DNA from: Bdellovibrionota bacterium
GTDB lineage: Bacteria; Bdellovibrionota; UBA1018; UBA923
DNA: 60,776 bases
NCBI GenBank assembly: GCA_040754655.1
Contig: JBFMCE010000005.1
Coordinates: 1 to 60,776, forward strand
Direction: 5' to 3'
Shown: positions 17,916 through 45,193 of the stretch, piece by piece
Layout: every line of letters begins with the position of its first letter
Position numbering within the stretch: the first letter of the stretch is position 1
Program-made: the position numbers and the translations under genes
The notes under the pieces: generated by a model
What the model was told of the DNA's origin: nothing
The model's database searches: none
What the model saw: the letters and a program-made list of their open reading frames with translations, nothing else

Positions 17916-19839
17916 GAGTTCGTTTTATCTTCTCTAGAGTTTCTTTAAAGGCCTCTTCTTGGACTCTTAGTTTTTCTTTCATCTGCTGGTCTTTTGCCTC
18001 AAGCTCGCGGGTGTGCATGAGCCTTTCCTTATCCATGGCTTCCTTGGTCTTGCGCAAGACGTCACGAACCGCCTTTTCAGACTCGTCCTTGACCTTCTGC
18101 GTTTCAGCAGCGTGATACTCTTTTAGCTGATTTACCTTTGCTTCGGAAGCGGTAAGTAAGAGTCTGTTTTTATTTTGCAGTTCGAGCATCTGCATGCGCT
18201 TCTCATGATCGGTTTCGGTGCGCAAGCGGGCGAGTTGCTGCATGCTATCGTATTTCAAGTTTTCAGTGATCTCGTCATGGCTCTCCTTTTGACGGATGAG
18301 GGCCTTTGAATAAGAGTCTGTAAGGCGCTTGGCGCGGGCTTTCATCAGGTCTTCATTCTGAAGCTGGTTAGAGCGCTGGGTCATTTCATACTCTTGCGAG
18401 TGAACCCTTAATGTCTCTTGCAATTGGTGCACGCGGTTGCGGTTCTCTCGAGCGGCTCTCGCCATTTCTTTCTGATTCCCTTGCCTCAAGCTGCTGATGG
18501 TATCGTTGTAATAGTTCCGTTGATACTCAAGCTCTCGATTGCGTGACTCGGTCAAGCTTTCTTCTTGATCCATCACGGCTTTCGCGATGTTGCGTTTTTC
18601 TTCCTCGTGCTTTTGAGTCGAGGTGATCTTGTCGTGCTGGTTTTGTTTTATGAGTTGATTGCGCTCTTCAATGGCATTGAGCTCTTGTTCATTGATCCGC
18701 TTCTTGAAGGTGTTGGCTTGTTCTTGGGTCTCTCTCTGGTGTTTGTCGTCTTTTGCACGCGTCTGGTCGGTATGCTGCATTTGCAGCATATTGCGAGAGA
18801 GGTCATTGTTCTTCCTGATAGCATCCGAGTTCAAGAAGACGTCTTGTTTGTGCCGGCGCTCATCCAGGGTGTCTTTGAGCGCGTTGCGGTCTTTTTCGGC
18901 CACGAGTTGGTACTGAAGGTCGTTTTCGCGCTTCTTGAACTGAGAGCGTTGTTCTTGAAGTTTTGACTGGTGCTCTTGTTCCGAGAGAGCGATGCGGTTG
19001 GCGTTTTCGCGATCGGCCTGGGCATTTTGGAAGTGGTTCTCATCAATCAGTTTTCTAACGGTATCCGACATGCGCTCTCGGTAGCCTTCGAAAGACTTGC
19101 CCATGTCTTTTCCGACGTTAGCGCCGATGAGATTTTTCTCATCCGTCAGTTGTTGCTCTCGAAGGTCATAAGAGCGCTTCATGTTGCCGCGATCAGCTGC
19201 GCTTTCCTCAGCGAGTTTTCGGTACTTCAGCTCTGCGCCGAGTTTTTCTTTAGCGAGCTCATCGCCATTTTTGCGGATATTGTCGTCAACATGGTGGCGC
19301 GCATTGGCCACGATTTGCCCCATGGCTTCATCGTGGGCTTGGTTGCGCAGGGAAAGCTTGCGATCGAAATAAGATTTGAGCTCTTGGCGGTCTTGCTCGA
19401 AAGTGTCTCGCACCTTTTTGTAGCGGGCTTCTCGTTCGGTGCGCTCGCCGTCAACATTGCGTGAAGTCGATTCAATGAGGTCATTGAACCGCCCGTTCTG
19501 CATCTCGCGGTCGCGGTCGCGTTCTCGCGTTTGTTCCGAGATCAGGCGCCCAAGCCGGTCGTAGTTCTGCCTGCGCTCTTCGCTGAGAGACTTTTCATAG
19601 GTATCGCCTTCTTTTCCGAGTTGTTCTTTGAAGTTCTCGCGGGCCTCACCAAGTTGGTGGTTCGACTTTTCTTGTACTTCCTTGATGTTTTCTTGTTGAG
19701 TCTGTTCGAGGCGATCGATCTGTTGGCGCTGCTTCTCGCGCATGCCCTCGATCTCGCGTGCGTGTTCGTCTTCGCGGTTTCTTAAGAGGCGATTGGCGAG
19801 TTCGACCTCGCGCCGCGCCTGCGATTCAGTCACATCCAT
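17890..19839 (-). CDS. long coiled-coil hypothetical protein
   Basis: 649 aa of E/K/R/Q-rich helical sequence lacking Pro, Trp and Cys; GGAGGGAGAGG SD; overlaps the pyk start by 26 nt. Confidence 0.85.
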   Translation of the reverse strand: MDVTESQARREVELANRLLRNREDEHAREIEGMREKQRQQIDRLEQTQQENIKEVQEKSNHQLGEARENFKEQLGKEGDTYEKSLSEERRQNYDRLGRLISEQTRERDRDREMQNGRFNDLIESTSRNVDGERTEREARYKKVRDTFEQDRQELKSYFDRKLSLRNQAHDEAMGQIVANARHHVDDNIRKNGDELAKEKLGAELKYRKLAEESAADRGNMKRSYDLREQQLTDEKNLIGANVGKDMGKSFEGYRERMSDTVRKLIDENHFQNAQADRENANRIALSEQEHQSKLQEQRSQFKKRENDLQYQLVAEKDRNALKDTLDERRHKQDVFLNSDAIRKNNDLSRNMLQMQHTDQTRAKDDKHQRETQEQANTFKKRINEQELNAIEERNQLIKQNQHDKITSTQKHEEEKRNIAKAVMDQEESLTESRNRELEYQRNYYNDTISSLRQGNQKEMARAARENRNRVHQLQETLRVHSQEYEMTQRSNQLQNEDLMKARAKRLTDSYSKALIRQKESHDEITENLKYDSMQQLARLRTETDHEKRMQMLELQNKNRLLLTASEAKVNQLKEYHAAETQKVKDESEKAVRDVLRKTKEAMDKERLMHTRELEAKDQQMKEKLRVQEEAFKETLEKIKRTHELALKKS

Positions 19840-20004
19840 GACGTTGACCTCTCCCTCCTGGAGAGCAGACTGCTACTGCCTTAAATTTTACGCGGGTCGC
19901 AGGAAAGATACAGTAGGCGGAAATGCGCTAGGAAGAAAGCGCCGCTCAGGCTTAAATCCCTTACCAATTTTTAAAATTAAGGGCGACTCCCTAGCTGGCA
20001 ATGT

Positions 20005-20020
20005 TGGCATAGGCGTTGCT
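20005..20020 (+). promoter_or_regulatory. sigma54 -24/-12 promoter
   Basis: TGGCATAGGCGTTGCT (GG-N10-GC). Confidence 0.7.
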
Positions 20021-20076
20021 CTCTCGGCCTTGCCACATACGGGGAATTTACCCTTTTGCCGAAAGGAGATGGTGGT

Positions 20077-20175
20077 ATGAGAAGAAAAAAGAGTTACTTC
20101 TCTGCTTGTCACAAGCTAGAAAAAACTTTAGAGAAATACGAACGTCTCTTTGCGTGTTTTCAATTTTTCAGCTGA
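20077..20175 (+). CDS. putative 32-aa small protein MRRKKSYFSACHKLEKTLEKYERLFACFQFFS
   Basis: AAGGAG SD 8 nt upstream; downstream of a sigma54 site; below the ORF-track cutoff. Confidence 0.45.
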   Translation: MRRKKSYFSACHKLEKTLEKYERLFACFQFFS

Positions 20176-20214
20176 ATCTGTTATGAGGAAGCAGCTGAAA
20201 AATTGAAAACACGC
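20152..20214. repeat. 23-bp perfect inverted repeat with 17-nt spacer
   Basis: GCGTGTTTTCAATTTTTCAGCTG (20152-20174) and CAGCTGAAAAATTGAAAACACGC (20192-20214). Confidence 0.95.
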
Positions 20215-20263
20215 CCTAAAAAATATACGGTCACTACCCGATATCCTTACAAAAATACCGTCA

Positions 20264-21976
20264 TCATTCTAGGTGCTCTAACGCTTCGATCATTTCTTCG
20301 GTCTCTTCAGGAGTAGGCAGCACGTCTGCGTTGCCAGGCGGCATCCTGCCATCTATCCCCCTCAATCGATCAACCACTTTTAGCTTTCGTGCCATACCTC
20401 TGTCATCTGGTCGCAAATCCTCAGTAGTGTAGTTCCTCATCTTTTCGAAGCTTTCGAGCGGAAGAGGCATATCGGAGTCCTTACCCCCGTGGCATTGAGC
20501 ACAATACTTTTGAAACTGCCCTTCTATGAATTTTATAGTTTCCCTTCTCTTAGAAGAGTCTTCAATGGCGTCCATGATTCTTTGAACGGTTAGCTTTTTC
20601 GGAGTATCCGTTTCGCAAACCTCTGGATTAGCAGCAGTTCCACGTAGCTTTAAGGCTGATACCCTCACAAAGTTCATGACTTTTCGTCCTATTGGCGGCC
20701 AAGATTCCAATATCGCCTTCATGGATTTTTCATCTGGATTTTTGAGGATGATCTTTTTTACTTCATCAGGTTCCAATGTGTTTAGATAGCGGAAGTCTGC
20801 ATCAGAAAACCCAAAACAAGAGTTCAAGAGGTGCAGCAGCTTGCTTGCAGCCTTTTCACGGACTAAGCTCGACACCTTTGGCCTTGGCGTTTTTGGATCA
20901 GCAAGAATCTGAGCGGCTGTACCAGAAATAGTAATCGTCGAAAGTTTCGGATCATCGGAAAAAACACCGGCGGTTTCCTCATTATAAGTTTCCAAATAGG
21001 GCTTCAATTGTTCCTCAGTCGGTGGGTTTGAAAAGTTATGCGTTTTGTTTGAGCGGTCTTTTAAGGCCTTAAGGAAGACTGTGGGGCCTTCTGCTCGATC
21101 GAGCAATGGGTCTCGATCCGGCAGCACTGAGCTCGGATAACTAAAATTGTCAGATGGCCATAGTCCTGTTACAGCCTCGGCAAACTCTTGATCAAGAGTC
21201 GCGATGCTTTTCGCGTCTAAACTATGCTCCTTTAGAAGCCCAAGATACAGAAGCTGTTTTTTACATGTCTCGTTGTTTTTGCACAGATTTGTACAGACAT
21301 TTACGCTCTGTAGCGCTCGATTGGCGATTCGCACATTCGAATCGATAAGATCGCCAGGGAATTTACCTTCAGGAAAAATCGCAGCTTCGGCATTCGGAAC
21401 GGTAATCAGTTTTTTTCCAGCTCTCAAACGTGCTTTTTTTACCTCGGTCTCAACCGCCTTATTTTCGGTCGTTTCTCTCCATGGTCGCGGAGTAAAGATT
21501 GGTCCGCCGGCCTGGTGGCAACTCATGCAGAGTTGGCGATCCGCCTGTATTACCTTTGGCCTTAATCCAGGTGCGTAGTCTTTAACGATCAAAAATTCAT
21601 AGCGTTTACTTTTTTGACTCCAAGTAATGACTTCGAGTTCTTGGGCATTGGGAACCAGCCCCACGAACGATGGTGGAACGCTGGCATTGCTTTCAAGAAC
21701 GACTATTCTACGAGGTTCTCCGTAATCAGCTTCTTTCTTTTTTAGAGAGCGACCGTCCGGAATTGGCAAGGAGCCGCTCAGCCCAGCCGTTGCATTTCCA
21801 TAGAGGTTCAGAAGATTAACAAGTTGATCAAAATCAGTCGGAATGTTGCCATCATTCTCATCAATGATTGTCTCGAAGCGAGTTGGGCCGGCCTGGCAAA
21901 TTGAAGAGCAAACAAATACCAATAAAGAAAGTAATATAAACGCTGAATATTTAGATAAACAGCCCCGAACTAGCAT
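20264..21976 (-). CDS. secreted di-heme c-type cytochrome-like protein
   Basis: Signal peptide; CMSCH and CAQCH heme-binding motifs; RMPP (possible Met ligand) after the second. Confidence 0.8.
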   Translation of the reverse strand: MLVRGCLSKYSAFILLSLLVFVCSSICQAGPTRFETIIDENDGNIPTDFDQLVNLLNLYGNATAGLSGSLPIPDGRSLKKKEADYGEPRRIVVLESNASVPPSFVGLVPNAQELEVITWSQKSKRYEFLIVKDYAPGLRPKVIQADRQLCMSCHQAGGPIFTPRPWRETTENKAVETEVKKARLRAGKKLITVPNAEAAIFPEGKFPGDLIDSNVRIANRALQSVNVCTNLCKNNETCKKQLLYLGLLKEHSLDAKSIATLDQEFAEAVTGLWPSDNFSYPSSVLPDRDPLLDRAEGPTVFLKALKDRSNKTHNFSNPPTEEQLKPYLETYNEETAGVFSDDPKLSTITISGTAAQILADPKTPRPKVSSLVREKAASKLLHLLNSCFGFSDADFRYLNTLEPDEVKKIILKNPDEKSMKAILESWPPIGRKVMNFVRVSALKLRGTAANPEVCETDTPKKLTVQRIMDAIEDSSKRRETIKFIEGQFQKYCAQCHGGKDSDMPLPLESFEKMRNYTTEDLRPDDRGMARKLKVVDRLRGIDGRMPPGNADVLPTPEETEEMIEALEHLE

Positions 21977-22006
21977 ATGGAAGTCCTCTCTCTTGAAGTA
22001 GAAAAG

Positions 22007-22022
22007 AGCAACAAGTGGACCA
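22007..22022 (-). promoter_or_regulatory. sigma54 -24/-12 promoter
   Basis: Minus strand TGGTCCACTTGTTGCT (GG-N10-GC), about 30 nt upstream of the 21976 start. Confidence 0.6.
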
Positions 22023-22108
22023 ATGCTAAGTCATGATTTTTGATGTATTATTTTTCGAGACGCGCTTAGAAGTATTAGACTACTGAAAAATCTATAAACA
22101 CTCCGAAG

Positions 22109-22125
22109 TGTCTATTTTTTTGACA
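22109..22125. promoter_or_regulatory. putative enhancer-binding-protein site (TGTC-N9-GACA)
   Basis: TGTCTATTTTTTTGACA about 87 bp upstream of the sigma54 site; same geometry as 7769-7785. Confidence 0.5.
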
Positions 22126-22205
22126 ACAGCTCATTTCCGGATCTTCGCGCTACGGTCTAGTGCAAATAAGATTTTCAGGAGCATATAGTTACAAAAGAGA
22201 GTAAC

Positions 22206-22253
22206 ACAAAAAAGCCCTGTGACCTTTCACAGCCACAGGGCTTTTTATATCAT
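22206..22253 (-). terminator. intrinsic terminator, copy 1 of a 48-bp perfect direct repeat
   Basis: AAAAAGCCCTGTG...CACAGGGCTTTTT hairpin with A/T tails; identical to 22902-22949. Confidence 0.9.
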
Positions 22254-22359
22254 TAAGACTGAAACCGCAGTAAACCAAATTGTCACGGTCTTCTCACTCA
22301 TGCGGTTTCCACGGATGGCACAAGAGTAGGCGTACTCGTGCGGGTGACAAGGCTAGAGC

Positions 22360-22797
22360 TTACCGACTACAGACAAAATCATGCTCAGTTTGGTAGCCAG
22401 CAAAACGGTCATCACCTTTAGTCTTCGAGACAACTCTTACGCGGCTTCCTTCTCGATCAAGAAGCTTTATTCGTATAATTCTATTTTCCTCACCCGAGAC
22501 TCTGTAAAATAGGGTAGTAACCCCTGGGCATTGCAAAAAATATTTTACAGAGGGTTCTTGCGTAGAACGGTGCCAGTTCCCATCAGCGCGTTTTGGCTCG
22601 GAACCGTTGATTTCAAAGTAAAAACTAGCATCGCTCGCAGTTTGAGTTAGCGAGAGTTTATTGACCGGAGCGTTTTGGTCGCAGTGTTCCCAAGTTCCGT
22701 TTAGTTGAGGATGACAGAAATGTGTATGGTCCTCCGAAAAAGCAGTAGTTGAATAGATACTAAATCCGGCCAGTACGAATAAGCTAAGCTTGATCAT
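22360..22797 (-). CDS. small secreted hypothetical protein
   Basis: GAGGGG SD, signal peptide (AFS-ED), 4 Cys; relatively AT-rich. Confidence 0.75.
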   Translation of the reverse strand: MIKLSLFVLAGFSIYSTTAFSEDHTHFCHPQLNGTWEHCDQNAPVNKLSLTQTASDASFYFEINGSEPKRADGNWHRSTQEPSVKYFLQCPGVTTLFYRVSGEENRIIRIKLLDREGSRVRVVSKTKGDDRFAGYQTEHDFVCSR

Positions 22798-22901
22798 ATA
22801 TCCCCTCTTCTTAAAAATGTTATTACATTTAGGCGCTCAAGTTTGGCAAGCTCTTCCTAGAACTTGAGCTGCACAGGTGAAGGTTCTAATTGCAAGAGAG
22901 A

Positions 22902-22949
22902 ACAAAAAAGCCCTGTGACCTTTCACAGCCACAGGGCTTTTTATATCAT
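22902..22949 (-). terminator. intrinsic terminator of the dsbA-like gene, copy 2 of the 48-bp repeat
   Basis: ACAAAAAAGCCCTGTGACCTTTCACAGCCACAGGGCTTTTTATATCAT. Confidence 0.9.
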
Positions 22950-22998
22950 CGAGACTTAACAGGCCGCAGCAGTTAGCCGCGGCCTTAAACTTCTTAGC

Positions 22999-24075
22999 TC
23001 AGCCGCCTGCCAATTCTTCGTCGATGGCTTCTCTGAAGTTCTCAACCGGCAACGCACCTGCAACAGGGCGGCCGTTGATGAAGAACGTCGGAGTGCTTCT
23101 CACGCCAAGCTTTGAGCCGTACTCCAAGTCGTCTTGAACAAGTTTTGCGTATTTCTTTTCTTCAAAACACTTGTTGAACTTCTCCATGTCGGCGCCGACT
23201 TCCTTGGCGTATTTCTTCAAGTTCTCGTTATCAAGCTTGTCTTGATTCGCGAAGAGCTTGTCATGGTACTTCCAGTACTTGTCGGTGTTTTGTTCGTTCA
23301 CGCACATTGATGCTTCAGATGCGGGTTTTGCTTGAGGGTGCATCGGAAGAGGAAAGTGTTTGAACGCCACTTGGATCTTGTTGCCATAGATCTTCTTCAG
23401 TTCGTTGACCGTGTTCGCACCTCGTGAACAGAAAGGGCACTGGAAGTCAGAAAATTCAACGATCTTCACCTTAGCGTCTTTTCCGCCGAAGGTGGGAGCT
23501 TGGCCGATATCGATGTTCACCTTCACGTTGGGCTTGGCGAAATAGATTTCAACCTTGTGCTTCTTCGAGAGAGAGACAATCAACTTCTCGAGCTCTTCTT
23601 GCTTCTTCTGAGCCTTCATATAGGTCAGGATGCGTTCTTTGAGTTGAGGGTTGAGCTGTTCCTTGGGGATCTTCTTTTCTTGAACGAACTTATTGTATTC
23701 GCTGTCTGAAATCTTCGCGTCACCCTTCAGAACCTTCGTTTCAACGTACTCATCAAGCCCCAAGTTGGCTTTCTTTGCTTCTTCGCTATAGGAACGCTCA
23801 AGAAGCAGTCTGCCGATGCGGCTCATGCGAAGGTCATAGATCTTGCGCAGGGCTTCAACGAATTCGAGCTTCTCTTCGCCCATGAGTTCATCCTCACTGA
23901 CGGGCTTTCCATCAATGCTGGCGACAGCCCCGGCCGGGCCTTGACCTTCTTTAAAAGTATACTTAGGTTTTTCTTTAGCGTTGCCGTTGCCGGTACAAGC
24001 AAAGGCAATCACCATTGCGACTGCCGCCATACCTACTAAAAGCGGTGTGTTGAGATATTTACGCAGAGCAGACAT
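22999..24075 (-). CDS. DsbA/BdbD-family thiol-disulfide oxidoreductase lipoprotein with N-terminal helical domain
   Basis: EFSDFQCPFC, HFPL, GVRSTPTFFING motifs; AFAC lipobox. Confidence 0.9.
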   Translation of the reverse strand: MSALRKYLNTPLLVGMAAVAMVIAFACTGNGNAKEKPKYTFKEGQGPAGAVASIDGKPVSEDELMGEEKLEFVEALRKIYDLRMSRIGRLLLERSYSEEAKKANLGLDEYVETKVLKGDAKISDSEYNKFVQEKKIPKEQLNPQLKERILTYMKAQKKQEELEKLIVSLSKKHKVEIYFAKPNVKVNIDIGQAPTFGGKDAKVKIVEFSDFQCPFCSRGANTVNELKKIYGNKIQVAFKHFPLPMHPQAKPASEASMCVNEQNTDKYWKYHDKLFANQDKLDNENLKKYAKEVGADMEKFNKCFEEKKYAKLVQDDLEYGSKLGVRSTPTFFINGRPVAGALPVENFREAIDEELAGG

Positions 24076-38081: not shown

Positions 38082-39545
38082 CTACTCTGACTTCCTGTCC
38101 GAGTCTTTATCGTCTCCTGACGGCTTTGGTTTTGATCCCATGCCGGCCGCCGCCATTTCTTGACGCAATCTTTCTTCAGCCAAAGACTTAGAATCTCTTA
38201 CAGGGCCTGCGGGAGATTGTATCGAAGGCCCGGTTTTCACCTGTTGAGTGCTTTCAAGGGGCGTCCCATCTTTGGTCAACATGATCGCTTCGCCGCCCTT
38301 TTCAACAACCGTTTGCGCGCGCAACTTAAGATTCTTTGCTTCTTCTTCTGTGCCAAATCCGGGAACCTTCATCAAGGACTCGATTTGAGCTTCTGCAACC
38401 TGGAATACGTTAAGGAAACCCGTTTGATAAAGCCCTTGAGCCAGAGTCTCATTAACCCCTTCAATGTGCTGCAGGTTGAATACCGCGTCGGCCATGCGTT
38501 TTTGCAGCTTGGTTTTCGAAATGATATCCAACCGCCAGCCCGTCAGCATCGCGGCAAGGCGCACATTCTGGCCTCGTTTGCCGATCGCAAGTGAAAGCTG
38601 GTCGTCTTCGACCATGATTTCCATCGACTTGTTGCGCTCATCCATCTTTATCGATGAGATTTCGGCAGGCTGAAGCGCTGCTTTGACGAACAAAGCCGAG
38701 TTTTCATTCCAGGGAATGATGTCGATCTTTTCGCCGCGCAACTCGTGGATAACGTTCTGAACGCGAACGCCCTTCATCCCGACGCAAGCGCCCACTGGAT
38801 CTACATCACGGTCTTTGCTCCAGACCGCGACCTTAGCGCGTGAACCTGGTTCTCTTGCGGCTGCCTTGATCTCAACAATAGCGTCAGCAACTTCCGGCAC
38901 TTCCATCTCAAAGAGTTTTGCTAAGAACTTAGGCGAGGTGCGGGTCATATACAGCTGAGGCCCTCGCGGGGTCATGACGACATCGCTTAAATAAGCTTGT
39001 ACGCGATCGCCAGGTTTGAAGGTTTCCCCAGGAATGATTTCGCTTCGTGGGAGCATCGCATCCGTTTTTCCAAGGTCAATAATCAGGCTTCCGCGTTCAA
39101 CACGGCGTGCGATGCCTGAAATGACTTCGCCCTTGCGGTGGATGAATTCACCATAAATAATATCGCGTTCTGCATCGCGAACCTTCTGGAAAATCACCTG
39201 TTTTGCGGTTTGGGCATCGATTCGTCCGAAGTCAGGGGCATCCAACTTAATGCCAAGCTCGTCGCCCGAGTTCACCTCGGGATCAAGCTTGCGCGCCTCC
39301 ACAAGGTCGATGTCCATGTCGGGATCGCCGATATCGTCTTCTGTTGGAACAACTTGCTTGAATTGAAAGAGCTCGATTTCGCCACTCTCAGGGTTGTAGT
39401 GGGCTTCTAGCTGAGCGCCAACGCCAAACTTTTTCTGTGCGGCTAAAAGAACCGCTTGCTCAAGAGCTTCAATAATCACTTCTTTTTTGATGCCGCGATC
39501 TTTCCCAACTTGTTCAATGACCCGGCTCAAATCTGACATGTTCAT
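38082..39545 (-). CDS. nusA: transcription termination factor NusA
   Basis: FGRIDAQTAKQV, AREPGSRAK, DPVGACVGMKG, LAIGKRGQNVRLA. Confidence 0.98.
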   Translation of the reverse strand: MNMSDLSRVIEQVGKDRGIKKEVIIEALEQAVLLAAQKKFGVGAQLEAHYNPESGEIELFQFKQVVPTEDDIGDPDMDIDLVEARKLDPEVNSGDELGIKLDAPDFGRIDAQTAKQVIFQKVRDAERDIIYGEFIHRKGEVISGIARRVERGSLIIDLGKTDAMLPRSEIIPGETFKPGDRVQAYLSDVVMTPRGPQLYMTRTSPKFLAKLFEMEVPEVADAIVEIKAAAREPGSRAKVAVWSKDRDVDPVGACVGMKGVRVQNVIHELRGEKIDIIPWNENSALFVKAALQPAEISSIKMDERNKSMEIMVEDDQLSLAIGKRGQNVRLAAMLTGWRLDIISKTKLQKRMADAVFNLQHIEGVNETLAQGLYQTGFLNVFQVAEAQIESLMKVPGFGTEEEAKNLKLRAQTVVEKGGEAIMLTKDGTPLESTQQVKTGPSIQSPAGPVRDSKSLAEERLRQEMAAAGMGSKPKPSGDDKDSDRKSE

Positions 39546-40096
39546 GTCTCAATCACTCCTTCAAACTCAAGATGGGCCTTCGAGATCAAGGCTAAAGGCA
39601 CATTGATAAACTGCCCATCTACGCTTAATTTCACCTTTTCGCCATCTCCATTCAAACCTTCAAGTCGGCCGATGAAATTCTTCTGCTTTTTATGCTTTTC
39701 CCAATATTCCAAGTTTTCAGTCTCTTCTTTTTCCAAGGCTCGAAATGTATGAAGCCTGGCTTTTCTCCCTCTAAATCGGTCAAAGTCTTTGGCTTTCCGA
39801 AGCGGCCTTTCAACACCGGGGCTGCTGACTTCCAATGTGTAATGCCCTTCCACTAATGGAGTCGTTTCGAAAAGTTCGTCGACAGCCTTGTTTACCGCAA
39901 CGCAATCATCAAGGCCGATTCTTCGTTTGGTTTCAGAATTGTTTAGAAAATCAATGAAGAGAGTGATTTTCCTTCCCCCTGCGGTTGACTGCTCCATGGC
40001 GACAACCTCATAACCCAAGGGCGCTAGAACGTTCTCAACGTCGCGTTGCAATTGCTCGAGCGCTTGCTTCGAGTTGGGCTTGAGTTGTGCATCCAT
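39542..40096 (-). CDS. rimP: ribosome maturation factor RimP
   Basis: LDDC, YTLEVSSPGVERPL; first gene of the nusA operon. Confidence 0.95.
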   Translation of the reverse strand: MDAQLKPNSKQALEQLQRDVENVLAPLGYEVVAMEQSTAGGRKITLFIDFLNNSETKRRIGLDDCVAVNKAVDELFETTPLVEGHYTLEVSSPGVERPLRKAKDFDRFRGRKARLHTFRALEKEETENLEYWEKHKKQKNFIGRLEGLNGDGEKVKLSVDGQFINVPLALISKAHLEFEGVIET

Positions 40097-40122
40097 CAGA
40101 ATTCAACCTAAAGAATCAGCCT

Positions 40123-40150
40123 AAAAAAAAAGTGGGCTTTTGGCCCACTC
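40123..40150 (-). promoter_or_regulatory. rimP leader terminator-like hairpin (attenuator)
   Basis: Minus strand GAGTGGGCCAAAAGCCCACTTTTTTTT just upstream of rimP. Confidence 0.7.
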
Positions 40151-40256
40151 ATACGAAGAGTCTTAGACTGAGGCTCTTTTAGCATGCCTCGAATAAAGGA
40201 TGCAATGTTTTTCCACACTTGACCGGACTGACCCGAAAAGCTTACACCTCACGGTT

Positions 40257-41609
40257 ATGCAAGAAATTCGAGTCCGATTCGCCTCAAGCCCCACCGGTTT
40301 TCTTGATATCGGGGGAGCTCGGACGGCCCTATTCAACTATCTTTTTGCGAAGAAAACCGGGGGGAAGTTTGTTTTGCGCATTGAAGATGCGGACGTCGAG
40401 CGCTCAGAAGCGGTTTATACAGAAGATATTTTAAAGTCATTACAGTGGCTTGGCCTGAATTGGGATGAGGGGCCTGTTTTTCAGAGTCAGCGTCTTGAGC
40501 GTTACCAAGCCGTATGCAAGCAACTGGTTGAACAAGGCCACGCGTACCAAGAGGAATCGTCTACAGTGCGTTTCAAGGTTCCGAGCGAGAAGGGGGTAAC
40601 AAGCTTCAACGACCTCATCCGTGGACTCGTTGCCACCGAGAATAAAGACATCAATGATTTCATTATTCAACATGGCAATGGAAGCCCTGCTTCTAGCCTA
40701 GCCTGCGTCGTAGATGATCATGACGGTCGAATCACTCATGTGGTTCGAGAAGAGAAGGCAGCCGATCAGATGCTACAGCAGTTGCTTCTTTATAAAGCTC
40801 TGGGATTCGAGCCCCCTGTGTTTGCGCACCTTCCAGAAATCTTAGGTCCTGACAAACGAAGGCTGGCCAAACGCCATGGCGCGCTGAGTGTGAACCAATA
40901 TCGGAGTGAGGGGTTCCTCGCCCAGTCTTTGCTCAATTGTCTTGCCCGCTTAGGGTGGAGCCACGGTGATCAAGAAGTCTTTTCAAAAGAAGAGCTTGTT
41001 GAGCTTTTTTCACTAGAGCAATTGGTAAACTCAAATGCTGTTTTTAACGTAGATAAGCTTTTGCGGCTCAATGGCCACTATATCCGAGACGTTCCCAATG
41101 AAAAGCTTGCGAGGCTTCTCCTGGAAGATTTCCTAGAGGACTGGAATGCCTGGGGACGTGTTTCGGGGCTTCGTGAGAAACTGGTCTCTGCCAGCGGGTT
41201 GAGTTTGATAGAGTTGTTCAAACAAAAAGCGAAAACCCTGAAAGAGCTGGTGAGTTTTCTCAGACCGCTCTTTTACGATGGGGAACTTCCGCTTGATGAA
41301 AAGGTGTACTCCCAATGGGCGAAGGCGCGTTTGGCAGGACCGCTCGAACACATGCTTGTAGAGCTTAAACATGTTCTGAAAGACCAGCAAGGCATCTTGG
41401 GCCAAATCGGGGCGGATCCCGAGACCTTAGAGACTTTGTTTCGCGCGACCGCGGACAGGTTTGAGATGAAGCTTTCGGAACTCGCCCAGCCCACGCGGTT
41501 TTTCGTTCAGGGCGAGACCAACGGTCCTCAGCTCTTTGACGTGATGGCGAGGCTGCCTTGGGCTACGGTAAACCAGAGGATTTTAAGATATCGCGATCTT
41601 TTGGGTTAG
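40257..41609 (+). CDS. glutamyl-tRNA synthetase paralogue with degenerate active site (probable pseudo-enzyme)
   Basis: GltX scaffold (RVRFA.SPTG, FVLRIED, WLGLNWDEG, VVDD..ITHV, RLGWSHGDQE, anticodon domain) but HIGH becomes DIGG, TYN becomes ASS, RGEDH becomes REEKA, KLSKR becomes RLAKR. Confidence 0.85.
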   Translation: MQEIRVRFASSPTGFLDIGGARTALFNYLFAKKTGGKFVLRIEDADVERSEAVYTEDILKSLQWLGLNWDEGPVFQSQRLERYQAVCKQLVEQGHAYQEESSTVRFKVPSEKGVTSFNDLIRGLVATENKDINDFIIQHGNGSPASSLACVVDDHDGRITHVVREEKAADQMLQQLLLYKALGFEPPVFAHLPEILGPDKRRLAKRHGALSVNQYRSEGFLAQSLLNCLARLGWSHGDQEVFSKEELVELFSLEQLVNSNAVFNVDKLLRLNGHYIRDVPNEKLARLLLEDFLEDWNAWGRVSGLREKLVSASGLSLIELFKQKAKTLKELVSFLRPLFYDGELPLDEKVYSQWAKARLAGPLEHMLVELKHVLKDQQGILGQIGADPETLETLFRATADRFEMKLSELAQPTRFFVQGETNGPQLFDVMARLPWATVNQRILRYRDLLG

Positions 41610-41881
41610 GGCTTTTCGTCAGGTCTCTTCGGTACACGATGTAAGATCGGACCCGGTCGTAAGTAAGCAGCAGCTTCGCAAAAGCTAACAACTTGAGCTC
41701 TTCATTTAAGTAAAGCCATTCAATTGGACTTCGCCGATAGCCAATCCATCTAAGATTACCTTTCGCGTCGCTTGAAAACTCGAAGTGGCGTATCCAACTA
41801 AAAAAGTTGATATTTGTTGATCTTTTTAGTATGGATTCGAGTTCTTCGCAGCAATCTCGTTAAAGAGGTCAGGAGCTTGTT

Positions 41882-43234
41882 TTGGATCGCAGAACTCCGT
41901 ACTTTTGTTGGACCTTTGCCATGGTATTTGGGCTTTTTGCGGTGGCAAGCCGTGAATCGCTGGCCGACCATAGCCTTAAGAAAAACCTAAAGGTGGGTGT
42001 TCACCAGGTTCAAATCGAAAGAGGAGAGCACCCTCTTTCTTACTTCAAGATCACTTACGACCAATTTGAAAGTTGGAAATACCTCGAATGGGGAGCTAGG
42101 CGCTGGAGGAAAAGAGAACAGATCGATCCTGATCAATGGCTGGGAGATCGAAGCTTTTGGCTGACAGATCCTCAAGACACCTCCGGGCTGGTGCGATGGA
42201 TGTATCCCGAGATGGCTGCAAACAGGGTTTTTGAAGCAACGCTGACCACGGCATCGACTGAGCAGTGGGACAAGCTCTGGGCGGCGGATGAAGCCGTGCT
42301 TGCAGCGATTGAAGATGATCTTTTCGCGTTCATGCGTGAGCACTGGAAAAGCCTGGCGGCTCTTGAGAAACAAGCCTCTGGCCCAGGAAATGCTTTAAAG
42401 GCGGGAAGCTTCGAATGGCAGATCGCTCTACGGAGACATTCAGCGATTCTAAGAACGCTCGATCATCTAGAAGGAATCCGGAATTCTCTTTTCTCGTTTG
42501 ATGAGAGTGTTTCGAAGTTCATCAAGAATGCTGATGTTTTACCACCCATTTCTAAGACCCATTATTCTTCCCAAGTCTTCAGCGCAAAGTTGCTTTTGGT
42601 CGTGCATTCCACATCGTCGGTTGGAAATGACATTCATCAGACCAAGAACAAGAGAGTGGGATGGGATTCTGAATGTCTAACAAGACCAGCCACGGAGGCG
42701 TTGGTGAGGCAATTTAAGGCTAGTTCTCTTCCCGTGGTCTATTTGATGCATGACGATCATTTACAAGACAGTTCGTGGTGCCTTTCGGATCGCAGTCCTG
42801 ATTTGGCTCTCTATTCAAAAGATGGAGAACACTCTGTGATGAGCGCCGCTTCGGAACTGGTCATTACCGGCGGAAAATTCGGTTACTGCCATGGCAACGC
42901 GCTAAGAGATGCGATTTCAAGGCACTTTTTGGTGTCTAGAGAGCCGTTGACGATCGATCTGCCGATGGATGCGATCTATACGGAGCAAAATGAATTGCTA
43001 GCCTCGAAGCATCGTAGGGAGGGCGATCTTGATTTTATTTCTTACTTCGATGAGCTGCACTTTGGGAAAGACGGAATCCTGGTTTCAGATGATGTTTATG
43101 GCCCGCTCAATCTAACGGACTATGATTTTAAGGTTTCGTTAAAGGGTAAGCAGGTGCTCTCGTATGGATATGGCCTGCGCCAGGTGCATTTAAGATTCGT
43201 GACCGCAGGCCTCGAGCCCCGGGGGAAAAATTAG
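41882..43234 (+). CDS. secreted hypothetical protein with isochorismatase-like C-terminal half
   Basis: AGGAG SD plus TTG start, signal peptide; LLLVVH...LPVVY...ELVITGG..GYC...RDA recalls the cysteine-hydrolase fold. Confidence 0.65.
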   Translation: MDRRTPYFCWTFAMVFGLFAVASRESLADHSLKKNLKVGVHQVQIERGEHPLSYFKITYDQFESWKYLEWGARRWRKREQIDPDQWLGDRSFWLTDPQDTSGLVRWMYPEMAANRVFEATLTTASTEQWDKLWAADEAVLAAIEDDLFAFMREHWKSLAALEKQASGPGNALKAGSFEWQIALRRHSAILRTLDHLEGIRNSLFSFDESVSKFIKNADVLPPISKTHYSSQVFSAKLLLVVHSTSSVGNDIHQTKNKRVGWDSECLTRPATEALVRQFKASSLPVVYLMHDDHLQDSSWCLSDRSPDLALYSKDGEHSVMSAASELVITGGKFGYCHGNALRDAISRHFLVSREPLTIDLPMDAIYTEQNELLASKHRREGDLDFISYFDELHFGKDGILVSDDVYGPLNLTDYDFKVSLKGKQVLSYGYGLRQVHLRFVTAGLEPRGKN

Positions 43235-43947
43235 GTACTGGGTTCGCGCCGCCTAGGGTCCAAGATTTGACGGGCCCGCGCGAAAACCGAATCAAACATG
43301 GGCTCGGTCAACTTACCTGTAAATGTATTTTGTTGGCTAGGATGGTACGATCCTAAAAGCCATCGGTCGCTGCCAAGCTCTACGACCTTTCCGTGCCCAA
43401 ACTGAGGTCTAGCGGTTTTAGGAGCAATGCCCATCTCGCGCAAGACATTCCAGGCCTGGTCAAATCCTATTTTACCCAAGGCAAGATAGACTTTGGCTTT
43501 AGAGAGCTTCTTGATCTCCCATTTGAGATAGGGAAGGCAATGTGCGATTTCCTGAGGGGTGGGTTTGTTGTCTGGGGGAGCGCACTTGACCGTAGCCGTA
43601 ACGAAAGCGTCCGTGAGGCGAAGCCCATCCTCTTTGTGGATCGAATGCGGTTGGTTCGCGAATCCCGCCTTGTGCAGGGCTCGATAGAGCCACTCCCCTG
43701 AGCGATCCCCTGTGAAGACCCGTCCTGTGCGATTGGCGCCGTGGGCCGCGGGAGCAAGACCGACGATCACCAGTCTGGCACCGTAGTCGCCGAAGCCCGT
43801 CACTGGGCGAGCCCAGTACCGCTCATTTGCGAATGACCTTCGCTTCACCTTCGCGATTGAAACGCAATGGTTGCGCAATCGCTTGCATTTTTCGCATAGA
43901 GTGATTTGCTTTTCGAAAGACGTCCATTCTTTTGCGACGATTGACAT
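43231..43947 (-). CDS. uracil-DNA glycosylase family 5 (UdgB-like, 4Fe-4S)
   Basis: CEKC, GLAPAAHGANRTGRVFTGDRSG, KCAPPDNKP, YHPSQQNT; start ATG 43947. Confidence 0.92.
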   Translation of the reverse strand: MSIVAKEWTSFEKQITLCEKCKRLRNHCVSIAKVKRRSFANERYWARPVTGFGDYGARLVIVGLAPAAHGANRTGRVFTGDRSGEWLYRALHKAGFANQPHSIHKEDGLRLTDAFVTATVKCAPPDNKPTPQEIAHCLPYLKWEIKKLSKAKVYLALGKIGFDQAWNVLREMGIAPKTARPQFGHGKVVELGSDRWLLGSYHPSQQNTFTGKLTEPMFDSVFARARQILDPRRREPST

Positions 43948-44008
43948 TAGAGACCCAATAAAACCTTGAGCGGGCCCGATTGCAAGTGGTATCGGTAGTC
44001 TCACACCT

Positions 44009-45193
44009 ATGAAAATACACAACGAGCTGCTTTCTACGCCGCAAGAAATCCAGGCTTTGGCTACTGCATTGCAGGGACAATCAATGATCGCTGTCGACAC
44101 GGAATTTTTGCGCGAAACGACGTTTTACCCTGTGATCGGGTTGATACAAATCGCGACTGAGACCGAATCGTGGTTGGTTGATCCCTTGCGCCTTGAGAAC
44201 CCGGACATCCAGCCTTTGCTTGATGTTTTTTGCGATCCAAAGATCGTAAAGGTCTTGCATGCATCGCAGGCTGATCAAGAATGCCTTTACACAAGTTATG
44301 GCGTTACCGCCACGCCTTCTATCGATACGGCTGTTGCGGCATCACTCTGCGGTTACGGTGATAGCATAGGCCTTTCCAAGCTTCTCAAAGATGTGCTGGG
44401 CGTGCACGTTCCCAAAGGGCATGCGCGCACCGATTGGACTGCGCGCCCGATGCAAGAGCATTTGAAAAAATACGCCCATCAAGACGTTCAACATTTGGTG
44501 AAGGTCGCGAAAAAGTTGCTTGAGCAACTGGATTCGAAAGGACGCAAGGCATGGGCGTTCGAGCTGTCGGCTCGGTTTGAGAAGAAGAAGAATTACGAGC
44601 CTAATCCCGAAGGCATCGCTTTGAAGCTTGTGAAGAGCGGCAGACTCGACAACCGCGGGTATGCGGCTCTTATTGAACTCGTTCGATGGCGCGAAAATAG
44701 GGTGCGCCATCTTGATGTGCCCAGGCGTCGGGTGGCCGATGATGATGTGTTGATGGATTTGGCGAAGGTGCGCCCGAAAAACCTCGATCATCTTACTGCT
44801 TTTCGTGGATTGAATAAAGGCGAGCTCAAAGCCAGTGCAACGGCTCTTCTTGAAGCGATTCAAAAGAGTGAGAAACTCGGTGAGAGCGAGCTTCCGCAGG
44901 TGCCCACTCCGGCAATCCCTTCGCTCAGTGAGGCTCGCGCGGTCGAGTTTCTTCAATGTTTCGTGCGCATCCTTTCGGATCAGCTCGAGATCTCGGCGCG
45001 TCATTTGATCACGGGCGATGATCTCTTGTTTCTGCTCAGGCGAAACGTAAACACGGTGGAAGACATGGTTAAAGAAGGCCTGCTCACCGAAGGCGCCGGG
45101 CGTTTGATCGGGGAAGAACTCCTGGCGATGCTCAAAGGAAAACGACAGTTGTCCTTGAGGAACAACCAGGTATTCCTGGTTGAACAGGCTTAA
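44009..45193 (+). CDS. rnd: ribonuclease D
   Basis: AVDTEFLRETTFYP, LIQIA, HASQADQE, TDWTARP, YAHQDV; HRDC domain. Confidence 0.92.
   Translation: MKIHNELLSTPQEIQALATALQGQSMIAVDTEFLRETTFYPVIGLIQIATETESWLVDPLRLENPDIQPLLDVFCDPKIVKVLHASQADQECLYTSYGVTATPSIDTAVAASLCGYGDSIGLSKLLKDVLGVHVPKGHARTDWTARPMQEHLKKYAHQDVQHLVKVAKKLLEQLDSKGRKAWAFELSARFEKKKNYEPNPEGIALKLVKSGRLDNRGYAALIELVRWRENRVRHLDVPRRRVADDDVLMDLAKVRPKNLDHLTAFRGLNKGELKASATALLEAIQKSEKLGESELPQVPTPAIPSLSEARAVEFLQCFVRILSDQLEISARHLITGDDLLFLLRRNVNTVEDMVKEGLLTEGAGRLIGEELLAMLKGKRQLSLRNNQVFLVEQA

What the first reader, a model, noticed from the sequence alone, without database searches (positions are those of the whole stretch)
40257..41609. Full-length glutamyl-tRNA synthetase pseudo-enzyme
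Seen against the canonical GltX consensus: FAPSPTG is FASSPTG; the HIGH motif is DIGG; EDTD is EDAD; the zinc/acceptor insertion is deleted; RxDGxPTYN is HGNGSPASS; RGEDHxxN is REEKAADQ; KLSKR is RLAKR. Yet the frame is intact for 450 aa, scaffold motifs (WLGLNWDEG, RLGWSHGDQEVFS) and the anticodon domain are preserved, and it has its own promoter. Established: these residues bind ATP and glutamate; GluRS2 and Glu-Q-RS (YadB) keep them, and YadB lacks the anticodon domain. Inference: selective loss of catalysis with retained tRNA-binding surfaces suggests a new role, such as tRNA-Glu/Gln sequestration, a partner for HemA or GatCAB, or a regulatory subunit analogous to HisZ. It is divergent from the rimP-nusA-infB operon.
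Basis: partly seen in the sequence, partly recalled or inferred. Interest (0 to 1): 0.82.

Follow-up and report, generated by a model that had tools for sequence, protein, structure and literature searches.

The report
Disabled second glutamyl-tRNA synthetase copy
One uncultured predatory-type bacterium keeps an unbroken second copy of the enzyme that loads glutamate onto tRNA, but its active site is wrecked while its tRNA-reading half looks preserved, so it is either a newly non-enzymatic tRNA-binding protein or a redundant gene caught just before loss.

Summary
The ORF (window 40257-41609, +, 450 aa) is real and is a GluRS-family protein: TIGR00464 387.7 bits, above its cut-off, with catalytic and anticodon-binding Pfam domains. 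The promoter claim was not confirmed.

A canonical gltX lies elsewhere in the genome (G000:C41, 538.5 bits). The window gene is the positional orthologue of a second GluRS lineage that sits divergently beside rimP-nusA in relatives.

All 11 nearest proteins found among 5.8 billion (at most 58% identity), and all 26 lineage members from 40 related genomes, keep every motif and the Cys-rich insertion. The disabled state is therefore a singleton.

Excess change is concentrated in the catalytic half, 56-67 unique changes against 10-18. The C-terminal half shows 12-29 against 9-25. ML end-branch lengths are 0.68 and 0.48.

Uniform neutral drift to this divergence leaves an open frame in only 0.15-1.7% of simulations.

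Best reading: a catalytically dead GluRS kept as a tRNA-anticodon-arm-binding protein, confidence about 0.5. Main rival: a redundant gene on its way to loss, about 0.36. A partnership with HemA finds no support, and the known contact surface for GatCAB is missing. An earlier, unchecked scan note (e1-899718) reports a dead full-length GluRS in Planctomycetota.

The parts
40257..41609 (+). CDS of the disabled GluRS paralogue (450 aa plus stop; P0001)
   Evidence: Searches show the open frame. One search gives Pfam tRNA-synt_1c (E = 1.2e-74) and Anticodon_2 (E = 1.6e-15). One search gives TIGR00464 at 387.7 bits against a cut-off of 289.95.
40284..40307 (+). N-terminal signature: FASSPTG (S10 in place of Pro) and DIGG (D17 in place of the HIGH-motif His)
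   Evidence: Pro and His are kept in all 11 nearest relatives and in all 26 lineage-A plus 5 lineage-B sequences aligned. Coordinates.
40389..40391 (+). EDAD in place of EDTD (T45A)
40545..40550 (+). Junction (Y97/Q98) of the in-frame deletion that removed the Cys-rich putative zinc-binding domain (CxCx20Yx3C)
   Evidence: 36-43 residues (70 in P0007) lie here in the 11 nearest relatives. TIGR00464 profile positions of about 97-138 are unmatched; no alternative frame carries the missing motif.
40671..40697 (+). HGNGSPASS in place of R-x-N-G-x-P-T-Y-N
40746..40781 (+). REEKAADQMLQQ in place of RGDDHINNTPKQ: ten consecutive replacements. The 30 nt are no more similar to the orthologues in phase than out of phase.
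   Evidence: 11-13 of 30 nt identical in phase; 4-13 out of phase.
40857..40874 (+). RRLAKR in place of KKLSKR (KMSKS-type loop; the second Lys is kept)
40944..40985 (+). Retained ARLGWSHGDQEVFS block. It includes the Arg that, by my count on the alignment, corresponds to E. coli Arg266.
   Evidence: The passage on Arg266 in PMC3927822 was seen.
41202..41585 (+). Anticodon-binding domain, with the AQPTR...GP.LF block invariant across the clade
   Evidence: residues 316-443. One search lists invariant columns A410-R414, G423, P424, L426 and F427. Searches show no significant acceleration.
39542..40096 (-). rimP, first gene of the divergent rimP-nusA-infB operon (context; the same arrangement is seen in relatives)
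   Evidence: RimP_N, DUF150_C; rimP and nusA lie beside the intact orthologues in L005, L006, L008, L020 and L029.

Best explanation
The gene is the positional orthologue of the second GluRS ('lineage A') that many Bacteriovoracia/Oligoflexia-type genomes carry next to rimP-nusA. In this genome it became redundant, because the other GluRS (lineage B, on contig C41) together with GatCAB can supply both Glu-tRNA(Glu) and Gln-tRNA(Gln).

The copy then lost the residues a class I synthetase needs to bind ATP and activate glutamate, and it lost the Cys-rich acceptor-arm element. It can no longer aminoacylate. It is nonetheless kept as an intact protein. The Rossmann half survives mainly as a scaffold, and the anticodon-binding half is still under ordinary constraint.

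The most likely activity is non-catalytic binding of the anticodon arm of tRNA(Glu, UUC) and/or tRNA(Gln, UUG), for example buffering or handing on these tRNAs.

Shown here: family membership, the motif losses, the deletion, the paralogue, the synteny, the singleton status and the asymmetric rate pattern. Inferred: loss of activity, selection for retention, and tRNA binding.
For: Family and fold:
- GluRS family and domains.
- Full GluRS fold predicted: pLDDT 77.5, pTM 0.70; TM-score on the query 0.79-0.83 to E. coli and T. maritima GluRS and 8jpv.

Motif losses and redundancy:
- All the listed motif losses and the pZBD deletion are unique to this copy: 0 of 11 nearest relatives and 0 of 26 lineage-A sequences share them.
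- A canonical gltX lies on C41 at 538.5 bits with all motifs. In the tree it groups with the lineage-B GluRS of two family members (G002, G006) and one genome of another family in the order (G015).
- No GlnRS was found in the genome. GatB is present. One tRNA-Glu(UUC) and one tRNA-Gln(UUG) were found.
- G001, G002 and G006 have only lineage B plus GatB and no GlnRS above cut-off, so lineage B alone appears sufficient.
- Synteny with rimP-nusA is shared with the intact orthologues.

Rate asymmetry:
- Tajima counts, catalytic half: 56-67 unique changes against 10-18 in intact sisters, p < 1e-5 in 12 of 12 tests.
- Tajima counts, C-terminal half: 12-29 against 9-25, not significant in 11 of 12 tests.
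- Partitioned ML end branch: 0.676 (N-half) and 0.483 (C-half), ratio 1.4, against 0.24-0.69 in 12 intact relatives.
- C-half dN from window to L005 is 0.46, against 0.54 for L005 to L006.
- Invariant sites changed: 23 of 66 in motif windows, 16 of 80 elsewhere in the catalytic half, 2 of 25 in the C-half.
- The non-motif changes are more conservative than random point mutation predicts; only 1.75% of simulations were as conservative.

Open frame:
- Simulated uniform neutral drift to 15-24% amino-acid divergence left no stop codon in 1.7% to 0.15% of 2000 runs, before counting indels.
- The deletion is in frame.
- Family genomes without lineage A show no remnants of it at E <= 0.001, so loss in this family normally erases the gene.
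Against: - The state is a singleton. Its 90%-identity cluster has 1 member on 1 contig, and the next relative is 58% identical. There is no comparative proof of retention.
- Lineage A was not found in 7 of the 9 other family genomes, 4 of which are at least 89% complete. It is therefore dispensable and repeatedly lost in this family.
- Relaxation is not confined to the active site: 16 of 80 non-motif invariant sites in the catalytic half have changed.
- Per countable site, P0001 changed at 0.27-0.30 in the catalytic half and 0.20-0.28 in the C-half, while sisters changed at 0.07-0.11 and 0.12-0.26. Some relaxation of the C-half cannot be excluded, and the C-half test has little power.
- The motif windows were chosen by me from recalled class I signatures.
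- No promoter or ribosome-binding site was found, and there are no expression data.
- dN/dS is not measurable.
- The scan picks out open frames, which inflates the weight of the stop-codon argument.
Confidence: 0.5

Rival explanations
1. This is a relic on its way to loss. The second GluRS became redundant and was inactivated. It is now drifting, and the frame happens not to be broken yet. It has no function.
For: - Lineage A was not found in 7 of the 9 other genomes of the family.
- The disabled state occurs in one genome only.
- Invariant sites across the whole catalytic half are changed (39 of 146), not only the active site.
- Absolute per-site change is similar in the two halves (0.28 against 0.23).
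- No promoter or SD match was found.
- The 30-nt loop looks randomised.
Against: - The frame is open over 450 codons. Only 0.15-1.7% of neutral simulations at 15-24% divergence stay free of stops, and that is before frameshifts are counted.
- The one large deletion is in frame and removes one structural element cleanly.
- The C-terminal half shows no significant acceleration (11 of 12 tests).
- Non-motif replacements are conservative.
- Relatives that lost the gene keep no remnants.
Confidence: 0.36
2. It is still an enzyme. Either it is a weak GluRS that tolerates these changes, or it is a remodelled ligase with a new substrate, as Glu-Q-RS, PoxA or MshC are for their parent synthetases.
For: - Several pocket residues are kept: the Arg of R-F-A, the Ser of SPTG, the Glu and second Asp of EDAD, the Arg of the RGDDH block, and the second Lys plus Arg of the KMSKS-type loop.
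- pZBD-less GluRSs are reported as active enzymes (PMC4381286 section 26; PDB 8jpv).
- The ten-residue replacement could be a remodelled pocket.
Against: - The HIGH His is replaced by Asp.
- The Tyr of PTYN and the whole GDDH loop are gone, and the first Lys and the Ser of the KMSKS-type loop are changed.
- These positions are invariant in all 31 other sequences aligned.
- The motif-window replacements look like random point mutations (mean BLOSUM62 -0.26 against -0.33 expected).
- No relative shares a 'new' pocket.
Confidence: 0.08
3. It is an assembly or binning artefact: a chimeric or foreign gene in the metagenome-assembled genome.
For: The genome is a 196-contig assembly at 90% completeness.
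Against: - The gene lies inside a 60.8-kb contig in the same rimP-nusA arrangement as its orthologues.
- Its N-terminal 97 residues are 77% identical to the copy in a genome of the same family.
- There is no frame break or alternative-frame signal at the odd segments.
- Estimated contamination is 0.95%.
Confidence: 0.03

Closest known systems
Intact 'lineage A' GluRS beside rimP-nusA in Bacteriovoracia/Oligoflexia-type genomes (P0002-P0012; L005 of G003, L006 of G005)
   Same: - Positional orthologues: divergent from rimP-nusA.
- 51-64% identity in alignment A1; 58% at best by BLASTP.
- Same domain order.
   Different: All of them keep FAPSPTG, HIGG, EDTD, PTYN, RGDDHINNT, KKLSKR and the CxCx20Yx3C insertion. 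The window copy alone has lost them.
Canonical bacterial GluRS (TIGR00464; E. coli GluRS PDB 8i9i; T. thermophilus 1j09)
   Same: - Family score above the cut-off.
- Predicted fold matches: TM-score on the query 0.79-0.81, 35% identity to 8i9i.
- The anticodon-binding domain is present.
   Different: The active-site signatures are degenerate and the pZBD is deleted. A separate canonical gltX does the housekeeping job.
Naturally pZBD-deleted GluRS (seven cases in Chongdar et al. 2015, PMC4381286; Methylacidiphilum fumariolicum GluRS, PDB 8jpv)
   Same: - They lack the Cys-rich domain and are of similar length (8jpv chain 448 aa), aligning with P0001 in one stretch. TM-score on the target 0.84.
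- The deletion goes with redundancy of the GatCAB route through that copy (section 26).
   Different: The paper describes them as wild-type functional enzymes. I did not inspect their catalytic motifs here. In the window copy the deletion comes together with loss of the catalytic signatures.
GluRS1/GluRS2 pairs (Helicobacter pylori, Acidithiobacillus, Thermotoga; PMC2777447 abstract, PMC3927822 passages)
   Same: Two GluRS genes in a genome that has GatCAB and no GlnRS. That is the ancestral situation of this lineage, as in G003 and G005.
   Different: Both copies are active in those pairs. Here one is disabled. Which tRNA lineage A served was not determined.
Glu-Q-RS (YadB)
   Same: A GluRS paralogue with a non-translational role. 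Its family models match at E = 1.8e-54.
   Different: The pattern is the opposite: YadB keeps the catalytic core and lacks the anticodon-binding domain. The score of 185 bits is below the TIGR03838 cut-off of 276.7.
HisZ and other non-catalytic aaRS paralogues (review PMC9437257, passages seen)
   Same: An aaRS-derived protein without adenylation activity, retained for binding or regulation.
   Different: HisZ is class II, widespread and has a defined partner (HisG). Here there is no partner, no conserved neighbour and a single genome. Table 1 of that review lists only YadB as a GluRS paralogue.
Earlier scan note e1-899718: dead full-length GluRS before cysS in Planctomycetota
   Same: A full-length GluRS with ablated HIGH and KMSKS, said to be conserved in a group. 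This is an AI note that I did not check.
   Different: Another phylum and another gene context. No sequence look-alike link to P0001 was found.

Membership tests
Bacterial glutamate--tRNA ligase (GluRS, TIGR00464 / Pfam PF00749 + PF19269) | Sequence-family score above the curated cut-off, with a catalytic domain plus an anticodon-binding domain | tested here: met
   387.7 bits against 289.95. PF00749 E = 1.2e-74 and PF19269 E = 1.6e-15.
Bacterial glutamate--tRNA ligase (GluRS, TIGR00464 / Pfam PF00749 + PF19269) | HIGH signature (H-phi-G-X in GluRS; PMC3927822 passage) | tested here: not met
   DIGG. The His is present in all 31 other sequences aligned and in the 11 nearest relatives.
Bacterial glutamate--tRNA ligase (GluRS, TIGR00464 / Pfam PF00749 + PF19269) | KMSKS-type loop (K-L-S-K-R) | tested here: not met
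   RRLAKR against KKLSKR. The first Lys and the Ser are changed; the second Lys is kept.
Bacterial glutamate--tRNA ligase (GluRS, TIGR00464 / Pfam PF00749 + PF19269) | Substrate-pocket blocks P-T-Y-N and R-G-D/E-D/E-H/W. Their roles in glutamate and ATP binding are recalled from the T. thermophilus structures, not checked in a paper here. | tested here: not met
   PASS and REEKA. 13 of the 14 changed residues in these two blocks are invariant in the 11 relatives.
Bacterial glutamate--tRNA ligase (GluRS, TIGR00464 / Pfam PF00749 + PF19269) | Glutamylation of tRNA(Glu) or tRNA(Gln) | not testable with these tools
   Needs ATP-PPi exchange and aminoacylation assays.
tRNA(Gln)-specific GluRS2 | Second GluRS in a genome with GatCAB and no GlnRS that charges tRNA(Gln) only | tested here: inconclusive
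   The genomic setting fits the ancestral lineage. The lineage has HIGG, not the H-phi-G-N reported for alpha-, epsilon- and gamma-proteobacterial GluRS2. Specificity is not testable here, and the window copy lacks the catalytic motifs anyway.
Glu-Q-RS (YadB, TIGR03838) | About 300 aa, intact catalytic core, no anticodon-binding domain, score above cut-off | tested here: not met
   185 bits against 276.7. The protein has an anticodon-binding domain and a degenerate core.
Non-catalytic aaRS paralogue acting as a regulatory subunit (HisZ type) | Loss of adenylation motifs, plus a conserved partner enzyme or gene neighbourhood, plus conservation across genomes | tested here: inconclusive
   Motif loss is met. 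No conserved neighbour was found, no hemA, and no second genome carries this state.
Pseudogene | Frameshift, premature stop or truncation; uniform neutral substitution pattern | tested here: not met
   There is no stop or frameshift in 450 codons. The substitution pattern is asymmetric between the halves and conservative outside the motifs. An unbroken relic is not excluded.

The most novel reading that the evidence does not exclude
This is a selectively maintained, full-length, catalytically dead GluRS. It no longer touches the acceptor end but still reads the anticodon arm of tRNA(Glu) and/or tRNA(Gln). As a stoichiometric tRNA-binding factor it would buffer, protect or route these tRNAs in an organism that makes Gln-tRNA only through GatCAB. 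That would be a young, datable example of a synthetase turning into a tRNA-binding pseudo-enzyme, with its intact parent form still present in sister genera.
Probability: 0.35. Interest if true: 0.7.

Novelty: new variant of a known kind. Interest (0 to 1): 0.4.

Why it matters
Non-catalytic relatives of aminoacyl-tRNA synthetases such as HisZ are known. However, the only GluRS paralogue listed in a 2022 review table (PMC9437257, passages seen) is Glu-Q-RS, which keeps catalysis and lacks the anticodon domain.

This copy shows the reverse pattern, and its intact parent form survives in the same genomic position in related genera. If it is maintained, it gives a recent before-and-after pair for studying how a synthetase becomes a binding protein, and what the GluRS anticodon domain can do on its own.

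If it is a relic, it documents how the second GluRS is lost once a non-discriminating GluRS plus GatCAB is enough. In either case the gene should not be annotated as a functional 'glutamate--tRNA ligase', even though it passes the family cut-off.

Tried and rejected
- Compensated frameshift or out-of-phase origin of the odd segments. The other two frames at REEKAADQMLQQ, GSPASS and the deletion junction do not read the canonical motifs. Nucleotide identity of the 30-nt loop to four orthologues is 11-13 of 30 in phase and 4-13 out of phase. Rejected. The origin of the ten-residue replacement remains unexplained.
- dN/dS against L005, L006 and L020. Synonymous sites are saturated (pS 0.74-0.98), so no ratio could be obtained.
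- Sequencing runs holding window:39900-41900: none was listed and no RNA holder was listed.
- Rfam families in 39400-42000: none at E <= 1.
- Sigma-70-type promoter in the intergenic region: none.
- hemA in the own genome: none.
- GlnRS in the own genome: only weak hits to the two GluRS genes.
- Literature. 'glutamyl-tRNA synthetase' + 'paralog' + 'catalytically inactive' gave 3 papers, none relevant judging by title and abstract start. 'glutamyl-tRNA synthetase' + 'pseudoenzyme' gave 1 paper, on a protist plastid. I therefore found no description of a full-length dead bacterial GluRS in these searches. Supplementary tables of PMC3927822 and PMC4381286, which list individual GluRS sequences, could not be seen and might include odd copies.
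- Earlier scan notes by sequence and by place in this genome: nothing relevant.
- The domain-specific rate argument was first read as clear-cut. It was then tempered by the per-countable-site fractions and re-examined with partitioned ML branch lengths.
Full report
**What is there**

The window has an open frame at 40257-41609 (+) of 450 codons. An upstream ATG at 40200 would add 19 residues, but the N-termini of the relatives start within a few residues of the 40257 start.

The protein (P0001) matches Pfam tRNA-synt_1c (E = 1.2e-74) and Anticodon_2 (E = 1.6e-15). It matches NCBIfam TIGR00464 gltX_bact at 387.7 bits against a cut-off of 289.95, with profile positions of roughly 97-138 unmatched. 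The Glu-Q-RS models score below their cut-offs (185 against 276.7).

rimP, nusA and infB lie divergently on the minus strand. A model built from an alignment with the 11 nearest relatives has pLDDT 77.5 and pTM 0.70. It superposes on full-length GluRS structures with a TM-score on the query of 0.79-0.83. These include the pZBD-less Methylacidiphilum fumariolicum enzyme 8jpv, with a TM-score on the target of 0.84.

The comparison uses the 11 nearest database proteins (alignment A1) and 26 members of the same lineage plus 5 of the other lineage from related genomes. The window copy alone has these changes:
- S for P in FAPSPTG.
- D for the His of the GluRS HIGH signature. That signature is H-phi-G-X according to a passage of PMC3927822.
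- A for T in EDTD.
- HGNGSPASS for R-x-N-G-x-P-T-Y-N.
- REEKAADQMLQQ for RGDDHINNTPKQ.
- RRLAKR for KKLSKR.

Between Y97 and Q98, 36-43 residues are missing (70 relative to P0007). They carry the CxCx20Yx3C zinc-binding-type motif.

P0001 is substituted at 41 and gapped at 10 of the 181 columns invariant in the other 11 sequences. Each of the 11 relatives tested the same way is substituted at 0-13 of 130-143 columns.

The odd segments are not frameshift artefacts. The 30 nt encoding the ten-residue replacement are only 11-13 of 30 identical to four orthologues, no better than out of phase. That loop is effectively randomised, and I cannot say how this happened.

The promoter claim is not supported. 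None of the three sigma-70-like sites in 39900-42000 lies in the intergenic region, and no obvious Shine-Dalgarno sequence precedes 40257.

**Genomic and phylogenetic setting**

The genome (G000; 3.78 Mb, 196 contigs, 90% complete) has a canonical gltX on contig C41: 538.5 bits, 485-aa ORF, all motifs present. No GlnRS was found. GatB is present. One tRNA-Glu(UUC) and one tRNA-Gln(UUG) were found among 42 tRNAs. No hemA was found.

Source names on the nearest proteins point to Bacteriovoracia/Oligoflexia-type uncultured bacteria. Among 40 related genomes, most families of the order carry two GluRS lineages. P0001 belongs to 'lineage A', and the C41 gene belongs to 'lineage B' (tree).

In L005, L006, L008, L020 and L029, lineage A lies divergently beside rimP-nusA. 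P0001 is therefore the positional orthologue of intact enzymes, not an extra copy.

- Lineage A is intact in two (G003, G005).
- It is disabled in G000.
- It was not found in the other seven. Four of those are at least 89% complete, and no remnants appear at E <= 0.001.

G001, G002 and G006 have lineage B plus GatB and no GlnRS above cut-off. Lineage B with GatCAB therefore seems sufficient, which makes lineage A dispensable in this family. This last step is an inference.

**Is the disabled state shared?**

No. In the 5.8-billion-protein collection the 90% cluster of P0001 has one member on one contig. The next relatives are at most 58% identical by BLASTP, and all of them are 486-526 aa long with every motif. 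No sequencing run was listed for the locus. Synonymous sites against the closest available DNA are saturated (pS 0.74-0.98).

**Relic or maintained protein?**

Five lines of evidence bear on this.

1. Open frame. Simulated uniform neutral drift of this gene to 10, 15 and 24% amino-acid divergence left no stop codon in 8%, 1.7% and 0.15% of 2000 runs, with indels ignored. The divergence observed at formerly invariant sites is 24%, or 19% if the ten-residue run is treated as one event.

2. Asymmetry between the halves.
   - In Tajima-type counts P0001 has 56-67 unique changes in residues 1-280, against 10-18 for intact sisters. All 12 sister and outgroup combinations give p < 1e-5.
   - In residues 281-450 the counts are 12-29 against 9-25, not significant in 11 of 12 combinations.
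   - With a fixed topology and LG+F+G4, the end branch of P0001 is 0.676 in the N-half and 0.483 in the C-half, a ratio of 1.4. In 12 intact relatives the ratio is 0.24-0.69, and their C-half end branches span 0.06-0.87.
   - C-half dN from window to L005 is 0.46, not larger than the 0.54 for L005 to L006.

3. Kind of change. Invariant sites changed number 23 of 66 in five motif windows, 16 of 80 elsewhere in the catalytic half, and 2 of 25 in the C-half.
   - The motif-window replacements look like random point mutations (mean BLOSUM62 -0.26 against -0.33 expected).
   - The non-motif replacements are more conservative than expected (+0.56 against -0.30; 1.75% of simulations reach the observed value).

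4. Retained blocks. The AQPTR...GP.LF block of the anticodon domain and the ARLGWSHGD block are intact. By my count on the alignment, the latter holds the counterpart of E. coli Arg266, which a passage of PMC3927822 calls essential.

5. Evidence pointing the other way.
   - Per countable site P0001 changed at 0.27-0.30 in the catalytic half and 0.20-0.28 in the C-half, while sisters changed at 0.07-0.11 and 0.12-0.26. Absolute rates in the two halves are similar, and partial relaxation of the C-half cannot be excluded.
   - The non-motif catalytic scaffold is clearly relaxed.
   - The motif windows were my choice.
   - A scan that flags open frames is biased toward survivors.

**Mechanism**

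I take loss of aminoacylation as very likely. The positions lost are invariant in all 31 other sequences and include the class I signatures. The specific roles of the Tyr of PTYN and of the GDDH/EEW block in glutamate and ATP binding are recalled from the T. thermophilus GluRS structures and were not checked here.

Deletion of the pZBD alone would not prove inactivity. Chongdar et al. report seven natural pZBD-less GluRSs as functional (PMC4381286, sections 16 and 26). The same paper bears on the proposed partners. Its abstract says the pZBD positions the acceptor arm. Its section 26 says GluRS contacts GatCAB through the pZBD in the T. maritima transamidosome. A GatCAB partnership through the known interface is therefore unlikely. 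With no hemA found, a GluTR partnership has no basis.

What remains is a scaffold plus an anticodon-binding domain. Non-catalytic binding of the anticodon arm of tRNA(Glu) and/or tRNA(Gln) is the most economical function if the protein is maintained.

My odds:
- Maintained non-catalytic protein: 0.5.
- Unbroken relic: 0.36.
- Still an enzyme of some kind: 0.08.
- Artefact: 0.03.

**Comparison and novelty**

The gene is a member of the GluRS sequence family but fails its catalytic signatures. It should not be filed as a functional glutamate--tRNA ligase, nor as Glu-Q-RS, which has the opposite architecture.

It resembles the class of non-catalytic aaRS paralogues such as HisZ, but it has no partner and is not conserved across genomes. 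Table 1 of a 2022 review lists only YadB as a GluRS paralogue (PMC9437257, passages). Two literature searches for a dead GluRS returned nothing relevant. Supplementary sequence tables of the two Basu-group papers could not be seen.

I did not check it. It is unrelated by sequence look-up, but it suggests that this kind of protein may recur.

I rate the finding a new variant of a known kind, of moderate interest. The anatomy is clean and the parent form is known, but it rests on one metagenome-assembled genome, with no expression or population data.

Noticed in passing
window 40121-40150 (-): A terminator-like hairpin (8 pairs, 5 G-C) followed by a T-run sits about 25 nt upstream of the rimP start codon. 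It lies between the divergent genes, where no upstream gene needs terminating. It could be a leader attenuator of the rimP-nusA-infB operon. NusA autoregulation of this kind is known elsewhere (recalled). No Rfam family matched.
   Followed up: partly
window 40749-40778 (+): The 30 nt encoding the ten-residue replacement of the GDDHINNTPK loop are only 11-13 of 30 identical to four orthologues, no better than out-of-phase comparisons. This is far more diverged than the rest of the gene. A small segmental replacement or local hyper-divergence would fit; the cause is unexplained.
   Followed up: partly
window 41882-43234 (+): A 450-aa ORF downstream of the GluRS-like gene has a hydrophobic N-terminus and no Pfam match. 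It was not found next to the orthologous GluRS genes in the fetched loci.
   Followed up: partly
window 43231-44100 (-): A uracil-DNA glycosylase superfamily protein (PF03167, E = 1.4e-27), convergent with the unknown ORF and overlapping its end by 4 nt.
   Followed up: no
window 18001-24000: A strong AT skew (-0.355) at 18001-20000, within a 649-aa minus-strand ORF (17890-19839), is followed by a G+C dip to 0.45-0.46 at 20001-24000, against about 0.51 elsewhere.
   Followed up: no
L005 (G003:C87), protein P0007: The intact orthologue in G003 carries about 30 extra residues inside the Cys-rich insertion: 70 residues where the other relatives have 36-43. This segment therefore varies in length within the family.
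   Followed up: no
protein P0011 (alignment, columns 43-65): One intact relative has a 23-residue Ser-rich insertion shortly after the HIGH helix. The other 11 sequences have none.
   Followed up: no
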